Shown here piece after piece: positions 48,953 to 49,085 of a stretch of 64,000 bases of DNA; the first letter of the stretch is position 1, and every line of letters starts with the position of its first letter. Origin of the DNA: Escherichia coli (GTDB taxonomy: Bacteria > Pseudomonadota > Gammaproteobacteria > Enterobacterales > Enterobacteriaceae); NCBI RefSeq assembly GCF_036507355.1, contig NZ_AP027877.1; one strand, written 5' to 3'. The translations under genes and the position numbers were made by a program. The notes beneath the pieces are model-generated. The model was not told the DNA's origin, did no database searches, and worked only from the letters and a program-made list of their open reading frames with translations.

Positions 48953-49085
48953 GATGCTCTCCCAAATATGAAATCTCTTGCTGGCATTACAAGAATCATG
49001 CCAAAAATAATCTATTGATTTAACAGCAAAACGCCCCGCGACGGTGCGCAGGGCGTGGTGAATTTGACTATTTTTTGGTGAAAAG

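What the first reader, a model, noticed from the sequence alone, without database searches (positions are those of the whole stretch)
48953..49085. Candidate sigma-54 promoter upstream of pspG
On the pspG-sense strand the sequence TGGCATGATTCTTGTAA (reverse complement of about 48985-49004) approximates the -24 GG / -12 GC (here TG) consensus about 30 nt upstream of the start codon, consistent with PspF/sigma-54 control of psp genes.
Basis: partly seen in the sequence, partly recalled or inferred. Interest (0 to 1): 0.25.

Follow-up and report, generated by a model that had tools for sequence, protein, structure and literature searches.

The report
Known sigma-54 promoter of pspG

Summary
The window is E. 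coli DNA (dusA–pspG–qor). On the pspG strand, TTGGCATGATTCTTGTA lies at 49004..48988, 35 nt before the pspG ATG (48952). It is letter-for-letter the sigma-54 ChIP-seq site OS40 assigned to pspG in E. coli K-12 (PMC4591121), which that paper marks as experimentally confirmed in EcoCyc.

A leave-one-out matrix built from 134 other E. coli sigma-54 sites scores it 15.1 bits, above the median of real sites. It ranks second in the 64-kb window, after the fdhF promoter. Score alone is not significant at window scale: shuffles give about one such hit. Position, strand and conservation make the case. 79 of 80 pspG loci from Escherichia to Yersinia and Brenneria carry the same element.

This departure is conserved (74 of 79 loci) and shared with pspA. 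Upstream lie a PspF-type palindromic enhancer (49070..49056), a covarying dusA terminator hairpin (49056..49031) and a perfect IHF consensus (49020..49008).

Published work shows sigma-54 binding in vivo and in vitro, PspF dependence, and open-complex formation on this promoter.

Verdict: observation confirmed, interpretation supported, already known, low interest.

The parts
48988..49004 (-). Sigma-54 core promoter TTGGCATGATTCTTGTA. The -24 GG is at 49002/49001. The -12 element is TTGT, with G48990 and T48989 in place of GC.
   Evidence: Read directly. Leave-one-out PWM score 15.10, rank 2 in the window. Identical to ChIP-seq motif OS40 for pspG. Conserved in 79 of 80 orthologous loci.
48975..48979 (-). 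Predicted transcription start, about 48977 (12 nt downstream of the -12 T), giving a 25-nt leader.
   Evidence: Inferred from sigma-54 geometry and from the rule used in PMC4591121 (motif centre + 19; 'Distance 25' for pspG). The mapped +1 from Lloyd et al. 2004 could not be read.
48957..48963 (-). Shine-Dalgarno sequence GGGAGAG, 4 nt (CATC) upstream of the pspG ATG (6 nt from its GGAG core).
   Evidence: Sequence. GGGAGAG recurs before the ATG in the orthologous loci.
48710..48952 (-). pspG coding sequence (80 aa, including the stop codon).
   Evidence: ORF. Pfam PF09583 Phageshock_PspG, E = 3.4e-25. RefSeq annotation 'envelope stress response protein PspG' in 5,425 of 5,426 E. coli genomes.
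49008..49020 (-). IHF-consensus site AATCAATAGATTA (WATCAANNNNTTR), about -31 to -43.
   Evidence: Exact consensus match. The window holds 7 such matches against 2.7 expected, so the match alone is weak evidence. The TCAAnnnnTTA core is conserved in alignment A1. pspA has a similar site at the equivalent position. IHF involvement at psp promoters is stated in PMC3709507. IHF binding here was not tested.
49031..49056 (-). G+C-rich hairpin ACGCCCTGCG-CACCGT-CGCGGGGCGT followed by TTTTGCTGTT. This is an intrinsic terminator for dusA, lying between the enhancer and the core promoter (about -54 to -79).
   Evidence: Terminator scan. RNA fold -23 kcal/mol, z = -4.4, 0 of 200 shuffles as stable. RNAalifold on 40 species gives 10 pairs, 8 with compensatory double changes.
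49056..49070 (-). Probable PspF enhancer (UAS): the imperfect palindrome TAGTCAAATTCACCA, centred at about -86.
   Evidence: It matches a pattern derived only from the two pspA sites (TRRTGWAATTCGCYA) with 2 mismatches. The window holds 3 such matches against 1.6 expected, so the match alone is weak evidence. GTCAAATTCACCA is the best-conserved upstream block in 40 species. The literature states that pspG has one PspF UAS (PMC3709507). The exact footprint was not available.
49076..49084 (-). Upstream half-site TTTTCACCA, 20 bp (two helical turns) before the TTCACCA arm of the palindrome and 1 nt after the dusA stop codon (49088..49086, one C at 49085 between).
   Evidence: Sequence. pspA has the same 20-bp repeat spacing: AATTCGCCA and AATTCGCTA at L001 1119 and 1139. 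TTTCACY is conserved in A1. Its function is inferred.

Best explanation
This is the sigma-54-dependent, PspF-activated promoter of pspG, in an E. coli dusA-pspG-qor segment.

Proposed mechanism:
- RNA polymerase carrying sigma-54 binds TTGGCATG-N4-TTGTA (49004..48988) as a closed complex that cannot open by itself.
- A PspF hexamer bound to the upstream palindrome TAGTCAAATTCACCA (49070..49056, centred about -86) reaches the closed complex by DNA looping. An extra half-site lies 20 bp further upstream.
- The loop is probably helped by IHF at AATCAATAGATTA (49020..49008).
- PspF uses ATP hydrolysis to open the promoter. Transcription then starts near 48977, 25 nt before the pspG ATG.
- Without membrane stress, PspA holds PspF inactive. 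Stress releases PspF.
- The hairpin between the enhancer and the IHF site (49056..49031) terminates dusA transcripts. pspG expression therefore depends on this promoter rather than on read-through.

Shown here: presence, score, position and strand of the motif; its conservation; conservation of the flanking blocks; covariation in the hairpin.
Shown in the literature: sigma-54 occupancy, PspF dependence and in vitro open-complex formation.
Inferred: the exact +1, the exact PspF and IHF contacts, and terminator efficiency.
For: - Identity of the locus: 5,425 of 5,426 complete E. coli genomes hold the 601-nt query, annotated pspG and dusA. Pfam PspG, E = 3.4e-25. The intergenic region differs from K-12 MG1655 at one base (window 49071), outside every element.
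- Motif: identical to sigma-54 ChIP-seq site OS40 for pspG, EcoCyc 'confirmed'. Leave-one-out PWM score 15.10 against a median of 14.42 for 134 real sites. Rank 2 in the window, after the fdhF promoter as an internal positive control. Expectation in the intergenic region on that strand is about 4e-4.
- Conservation: 79 of 80 pspG loci have the element on the sense strand. GG at -24 is found in 79 of 79. In alignment A1 the core is invariant or nearly so, while sequence downstream of -9 is not conserved. The 50-nt core is 100% identical in 4,301 of 5,414 E. coli records.
- Function, from the literature: pspG is up-regulated on sigma-54 overexpression. There is a holoenzyme gSELEX peak and a Salmonella ChIP-chip site. 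PspF binds the pspG UAS and pspG is 20-fold inducible; deleting the pspG promoter alters PspF dynamics. Open complex and abortive synthesis occur with sigma-54 and PspF1-275.
- No sigma-70-like promoter was found on the pspG strand in the intergenic region.
- The terminator hairpin is supported.
Against: - The -12 position is T rather than the near-universal C. Only 4 of 135 E. coli ChIP sites have T there, and it costs 3.35 bits.
- The PWM score alone is not significant at the 64-kb scale: about one equal-scoring hit per shuffled window.
- The UAS and IHF pattern matches are individually within chance at window scale. Their assignment rests on position, conservation and the literature.
- The primary mapping paper could not be read, so the +1 is predicted, not verified here.
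- In Salmonella, a promiscuous activator raised pspG transcript only 1.4-fold despite strong sigma-54 binding.
Confidence: 0.97

Rival explanations
1. The motif is a chance match. pspG would then be transcribed from a sigma-70 promoter in the intergenic region or by read-through from dusA.
For: A score of 15.1 or more turns up about once per shuffled 64-kb window. The -12 C is missing. dusA lies immediately upstream on the same strand.
Against: No sigma-70-like site was found on the pspG strand of the intergenic region. A strong, covarying terminator hairpin sits between dusA and the core promoter. The element is conserved in 79 of 80 species while its surroundings drift. Sigma-54 occupies the site in vivo.
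Confidence: 0.01
2. [quoted passage not shown]
For: Most of the 135 ChIP-seq sites are not known promoters. In Salmonella with a promiscuous activator, pspG transcript rose only 1.4-fold despite strong binding.
Against: The site is intergenic, in sense orientation, and 25 nt before a gene with a Shine-Dalgarno sequence. pspG was one of only five genes with an upstream intergenic site that rose on sigma-54 overexpression. pspG is 20-fold inducible through PspF. Open complexes and abortive transcripts form in vitro. An enhancer-like palindrome and an IHF site are conserved upstream.
Confidence: 0.02

Closest known systems
E. coli K-12 pspG promoter (pspGp; Lloyd et al. 2004; ChIP-seq site OS40 in PMC4591121)
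   Same: The 17-mer, the IHF-like site, the hairpin and the UAS palindrome are identical. The whole dusA-pspG intergenic region differs at one base, window 49071, A instead of G.
   Different: Nothing of substance. The single difference lies just 5' of the UAS palindrome. This is the same element in another E. coli strain.
E. coli pspA (pspABCDE) promoter
   Same: The core is TTGGCACGCAAATTGTA, with the same unusual GT at -12. It has an IHF-like AATCAA site at about -33 to -45. It has PspF sites of the type T-R-R-T-G-W-A-A-T-T-C-G-C-Y-A, with TTC-N-CCA arms 20 bp apart. The activator (PspF) and negative regulator (PspA) are the same.
   Different: pspA has two full UAS palindromes, centred at about -99 and -119. 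pspG has one full palindrome (about -86) plus a half-site, matching 'two UASs vs one UAS' and 100-fold vs 20-fold induction. The pspA enhancer overlaps the divergent pspF promoters. The pspG enhancer abuts the end of dusA and is separated from the core promoter by the dusA terminator.
Salmonella Typhimurium pspG promoter (STM4244)
   Same: TGGCATGATTTTTGTAAG is bound by sigma-54 in ChIP-chip, also with GT at -12.
   Different: One spacer base differs (T for C). In S. enterica subsp. arizonae and diarizonae a REP-like element is inserted in the leader. The diarizonae locus has the canonical GC at -12.
Canonical sigma-54 promoters (consensus TGGCACG-N4-TTGCW, e.g. glnAp2, fdhF)
   Same: GG and G are spaced as in the consensus. 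15 of 17 positions score positively in the PWM. There is an upstream enhancer and an IHF site.
   Different: T replaces C at -12, which is rare: 4 of 135 E. coli sites.

Membership tests
Sigma-54 (RpoN) -24/-12 promoter | GG at -25/-24 and GC at -13/-12 with fixed spacing (TGGCAC-N5-TTGC) | tested here: inconclusive
   GG is present with correct spacing, and the G of GC is present. The C is replaced by T. The strict dinucleotide rule is therefore not fully met. However, 10 of 135 ChIP-verified E. coli sites also lack C there, including pspA, and the overall PWM score is above the family median.
Sigma-54 (RpoN) -24/-12 promoter | Overall similarity to verified sites (PWM score within the family range) | tested here: met
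   Leave-one-out score 15.10. The family range is 6.6 to 20.4 with median 14.4. 47 of 134 sites score higher.
Sigma-54 (RpoN) -24/-12 promoter | Occupied by sigma-54 holoenzyme | not testable with these tools
   Literature only: ChIP-seq FAT 15 at the identical K-12 sequence, a gSELEX peak and Salmonella ChIP-chip.
Sigma-54 (RpoN) -24/-12 promoter | Transcription start about 12 nt downstream of the -12 element, dependent on rpoN | not testable with these tools
   The predicted +1 is at about 48977. EcoCyc lists the promoter as experimentally confirmed, according to PMC4591121. The primary paper is not held.
Sigma-54 (RpoN) -24/-12 promoter | Correct orientation and position upstream of a gene, conserved in orthologous loci | tested here: met
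   The element is on the sense strand 34 to 46 nt before the ATG in most Enterobacteriaceae, and further away where REP or ERIC-like insertions occur. It is present in 79 of 80 loci.
PspF regulon promoter (enhancer-dependent, IHF-assisted) | PspF upstream activating sequence about 80-130 bp upstream | tested here: met
   TAGTCAAATTCACCA at -79 to -93 matches the pspA-derived pattern with 2 mismatches. It is the best-conserved upstream block. Binding itself is known only from the literature.
PspF regulon promoter (enhancer-dependent, IHF-assisted) | IHF site between enhancer and core promoter | tested here: met
   There is a perfect WATCAANNNNTTR match at 49020..49008, conserved as TCAAnnnnTTA. 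IHF binding was not tested here.
PspF regulon promoter (enhancer-dependent, IHF-assisted) | Induction by membrane stress through PspF, repression by PspA | not testable with these tools
   Literature only: PMC3709507 and PMC2763126.

The most novel reading that the evidence does not exclude
The T at -12 may be a selected, psp-regulon-specific setting of the sigma-54 'lock' rather than a defect. Purifying selection may act against the consensus C at both pspA and pspG, tuning basal leak or responsiveness to PspF. PspF has no regulatory domain of its own and occupies only one psp enhancer per cell at a time.

The data here extend to pspG what Huvet et al. 2011 noted for pspA. T is kept in 74 of 79 species. 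A is tolerated 3 times, G once and C only once, although T to C is a transition that would improve the consensus match by 5 bits.

A second, weaker possibility is that the conserved dusA terminator inside the enhancer-promoter loop couples dusA transcription to PspF occupancy.
Probability: 0.35. Interest if true: 0.3.

Novelty: already known. Interest (0 to 1): 0.07.

Why it matters
It matters little as a discovery. The pspG promoter has been known since 2004 and has been re-found by ChIP-seq, ChIP-chip, gSELEX and in vitro transcription studies.

It is useful as a calibration point. A tool-free reader correctly recognised a sigma-54 promoter despite its non-consensus -12 base. The case also shows that PWM score alone (about one equal hit per shuffled 64 kb) cannot establish such a site. 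Position, strand and conservation do.

The comparative data give a compact, conserved map of the whole regulatory region: half-site, UAS palindrome, dusA terminator, IHF site and a -24/-12 element with GT. They also give a population-level argument that the -12 T is maintained by selection.

Tried and rejected
- Lloyd et al. 2004 (by DOI and by PubMed id) and Green & Darwin 2004 (by a PMC id recalled from memory, so possibly the wrong one) returned nothing from the library. The mapped +1 and the footprints could not be checked.
- One literature search failed on term syntax, and so did one in-paper term search.
- An Rfam scan of 48500..49300 at E <= 1 found nothing in the intergenic region. It gave only two sub-threshold ctRNA_p42d hits (21 and 20 bits against a gathering score of 50) on the hairpin at 48541..48584, downstream of pspG. 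These were rejected as noise from a terminator-like stem.
- The sigma-70 promoter scan found no candidate on the pspG strand of the intergenic region. Its two hits are on the opposite strand, one in the pspG-qor spacer (inside the antisense of pspH) and one inside pspG.
- The window-wide pattern searches for the PspF-site and IHF consensus were not significant on their own: 3 against 1.6 expected, and 7 against 2.7 expected. These elements are assigned from position, conservation and the literature, not from those counts.
- The ungapped, motif-anchored conservation profile was blurred by 1 to 2 nt indels between genera. It was replaced by the MAFFT alignment A1.
- The one locus without a PWM hit (L025, Citrobacter werkmanii) is not a different architecture. 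It is the same region with a single G to T change in the -24 GG: TTGTCATGTTTCTTGTA.

Full report
**1. What is at the coordinates**

The minus strand of window 48600..49500 reads, in order:
- the 3' end of a dusA-like ORF, with stop TAA at 49088..49086;
- a 133-nt spacer (49085..48953);
- an 80-codon ORF starting at ATG 48952.

That ORF is PspG. It matches Pfam PF09583 at E = 3.4e-25 over the full model. The 601-nt stretch around it is present in 5,425 of 5,426 complete E. coli genomes at 95-100% identity, annotated 'pspG: envelope stress response protein PspG | dusA'. Against K-12 MG1655 the spacer differs at a single base, window 49071 (A for G). The window is therefore E. coli chromosome, read antiparallel to K-12 numbering.

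**2. The observation**

With one more 5' base it is TTGGCATGATTCTTGTA (49004..48988). GG sits at 49002/49001. Twelve bases on, where the consensus has GC, the sequence has G48990 and T48989. The motif ends 35 nt before the ATG.

**3. Is it better than chance?**

I took the 135 sigma-54 ChIP-seq motifs of Bonocora et al. 2015 (PMC4591121, Tables 1 and 2). I removed the pspG site itself, built a log-odds matrix and scanned both strands of the window.
- The site scores 15.10 bits. The family range is 6.6 to 20.4 with median 14.4, and 47 of 134 real sites score higher.
- It is the second-best of about 128,000 positions. The best (15.95) is GTGGCATAAAAGATGCA at 11432..11448 (+), which is the published fdhF sigma-54 promoter motif. 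This is a useful internal positive control.
- Taken alone the score proves little. 200 dinucleotide shuffles of the window give a mean of 0.995 hits at or above 15.10, and 63% of shuffles have at least one.
- What is improbable is the placement. The expectation on the right strand of a 133-nt spacer is about 4e-4.
- The T at -12 costs 3.35 bits. With C the site would score 20.3. Only 4 of 135 ChIP sites have T at that position, and pspA is one of them.

**4. Published evidence for this exact sequence**

- Table 1 of PMC4591121 lists OS40: peak 4260832, FAT 15, motif TTGGCATGATTCTTGTA, strand +, b4050 pspG, distance 25, PSSM 10.745, EcoCyc 'C' (experimentally confirmed).
- The same paper reports pspG among only five genes with an upstream intergenic site that rose on sigma-54 overexpression, 'pspA and pspG by PspF'.
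- Shimada et al. 2021 (PMC8743547) found an RpoN-holoenzyme gSELEX peak in the dusA/pspG spacer.
- Samuels et al. 2013 (PMC3844500) found sigma-54 ChIP-chip enrichment at TGGCATGATTTTTGTAAG before Salmonella pspG.
- Mehta et al. 2013 (PMC3709507) state that PspF binds the UASs of the pspA and pspG promoters. pspA has two UASs and is 100-fold induced. pspG has one UAS and is 20-fold induced. Deleting the pspG promoter changes PspF dynamics and basal pspA expression.
- Zhang et al. 2015 (PMC4641871) formed open complexes and abortive products on a pspG promoter probe with sigma-54 and PspF1-275. [quoted passage not shown]
- The founding paper (Lloyd et al. 2004) is cited by all of these but is not held in the library.

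**5. Comparative evidence gathered here**

A scan of one genome per species with the PspG protein returned 80 loci. They run from Escherichia through Citrobacter, Salmonella, Enterobacter, Klebsiella, Raoultella, Kluyvera and Leclercia to Yersinia, Rahnella, Biostraticola and Brenneria.
- The best sense-strand PWM hit within 260 nt upstream of pspG is a TGGCA(C/T)G-N4-TTGTA element in 79 of 80 loci, with scores from 12.2 to 20.1.
- GG at -24 is present in 79 of 79. The -12 dinucleotide is GT in 74, GA in 3, GG in 1 and GC in 1.
- The one 'missing' locus (Citrobacter werkmanii, L025) has the same region with a single G to T change in the GG: TTGTCATGTTTCTTGTA.
- In a MAFFT alignment of 40 species (A1), the columns of TGGCA-G, T-TTG and the following TAA are invariant or at least 90% identical. 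The four spacer bases vary, and everything downstream of about -9 is unconserved.
- Within E. coli, the 50 nt from the IHF-like site to the predicted +1 are 100% identical in 4,301 of 5,414 records.

**6. The rest of the regulatory region**

All coordinates are on the minus strand. Positions are relative to a predicted +1 at 48977.
- (a) TAGTCAAATTCACCA, 49070..49056 (-93 to -79), is an imperfect palindrome. In many genera it reads TGGTCAAATTCACCA. The pspF-pspA spacer of K-12 holds two similar sites, TGATGAAATTCGCCA and TAGTGTAATTCGCTA, 20 bp apart and centred at about -119 and -99. A pattern made from those two sites alone finds the pspG site with 2 mismatches. That search is not significant by itself (3 hits, 1.6 expected).
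- (b) A further TTTTCACCA lies at 49084..49076, exactly 20 bp upstream of the TTCACCA arm and 1 nt after the dusA stop codon. One full site plus a half-site fits the published 'one UAS'.
- (c) ACGCCCTGCG-CACCGT-CGCGGGGCGT followed by TTTTGCTGTT, 49056..49031, is a terminator-type hairpin. It folds at -23 kcal/mol with z = -4.4. Across the 40 species RNAalifold predicts 10 pairs, and 8 of them show compensatory double substitutions. I read this as the dusA terminator. It sits inside the enhancer-promoter loop.
- (d) AATCAATAGATTA, 49020..49008 (-43 to -31), is a perfect WATCAANNNNTTR IHF consensus (7 hits in the window against 2.7 expected). It is conserved as TCAAnnnnTTA. pspA has AATCAAAAAGATA at about -45 to -33.
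- (e) The Shine-Dalgarno sequence GGGAGAG lies at 48963..48957.
- No sigma-70-like promoter was found on this strand of the spacer. Rfam finds nothing there.

**7. Mechanism**

This is the established enhancer-dependent scheme. The steps are marked by their basis.
- Sigma-54 holoenzyme sits on the -24/-12 element as a closed complex. Occupancy is shown by ChIP in the literature.
- PspF bound at the UAS contacts it through an IHF-assisted loop and opens it by ATP hydrolysis. PspF binding and in vitro opening are shown in the literature. The exact contacts are inferred here from sequence and conservation.
- PspA inhibits PspF until membrane stress releases it (literature).
- The hairpin stops dusA transcripts before the core promoter. 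This is inferred from structure, the T-tract and covariation.

**8. The -12 GT**

Huvet et al. [quoted passage not shown] The present data show the same for pspG in 74 of 79 species. The consensus C appears only once, although T to C is a transition that would raise the match by 5 bits.

This argues for selection against C. It is the only mildly open point. It is an extension of a published remark, not a new phenomenon, and the counts are not phylogenetically independent.

**9. Verdict**

The element is already known, so interest is low.

Noticed in passing
window 49031..49056 (-), tail to 49021: A strong intrinsic-terminator hairpin for dusA lies between the PspF enhancer and the IHF site and core promoter of pspG. 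It is conserved in 40 Enterobacteriaceae species, with compensatory changes in 8 of 10 pairs. dusA transcription therefore runs through the PspF binding site and stops inside the enhancer-promoter loop.
   Followed up: yes
window 11432..11448 (+): The best sigma-54 PWM hit in the window is GTGGCATAAAAGATGCA (15.95 bits). It is identical to the published fdhF promoter motif (OS41 in PMC4591121). It served as an internal positive control.
   Followed up: partly
window 10341..10357 (+), 16291..16307 (-), 38890..38906 (+), 63124..63140 (+): Four further PWM hits score 13.3 to 14.1 bits: TTGGCGCGCATAATGCC, ATGGCGAAATTGTTGCA, CTGGCGCGTAAGCTGCA and CCGGCCCAGGTTTTGCT. They are within the range of real, mostly intragenic, ChIP sites but also within chance for 64 kb. 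They were not matched to the 135 high-stringency sites.
   Followed up: no
window 48543..48653 (-): K-12 annotates the sRNA gene pspH (b4758) here, in the pspG 3' UTR and overlapping the end of qor on the other strand. Melamed et al. 2016 (PMC5145812) describe PspH as an Hfq-dependent sponge of Spot 42 (Spf), possibly with its own promoter. The window differs from K-12 at one base within it (C for T). Whether the sigma-54 promoter also feeds PspH was not examined.
   Followed up: partly
window 48541..48584 (both strands): The G+C-rich hairpin AAAGGGCTTCC-CAGG-TGGAAGCCCT flanked by A and T runs lies between convergent pspG/pspH and qor. It looks like a bidirectional terminator. Its only Rfam hits are sub-threshold ctRNA_p42d (21 and 20 bits, gathering score 50), taken as noise.
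   Followed up: partly
L025 (Citrobacter werkmanii NBRC 105721), about 1449..1465: This is the only one of the 80 pspG loci without a scoring sigma-54 site. The element is present but the -24 GG reads GT (TTGTCATGTTTCTTGTA). All flanking blocks are intact. It is either a natural down-mutation or a sequencing error.
   Followed up: partly
L014 and L031 (Salmonella enterica subsp. arizonae and diarizonae), between promoter and pspG: A REP-like palindrome (GTAGACCCGGTAAGCGC..GCCGGGC) is inserted in the pspG leader, lengthening the promoter-to-ATG distance from 35 to about 69 nt. The diarizonae locus is also the only one with canonical GC at -12 (TTGGCATGGTTTTTGCT).
   Followed up: no
L076 (Yersinia vastinensis), leader of pspG: The sigma-54 element lies 190 nt before the ATG. 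The long leader contains a sequence resembling an ERIC/IRU repeat (..CACACATACAGCTTGAAGTATGGTGGGGATAG..). This identification is from memory of the ERIC consensus and was not tested.
   Followed up: no
window 49071: The single difference from K-12 MG1655 in the dusA-pspG spacer is A for G, immediately 5' of the UAS palindrome. The position is variable among species in alignment A1.
   Followed up: yes
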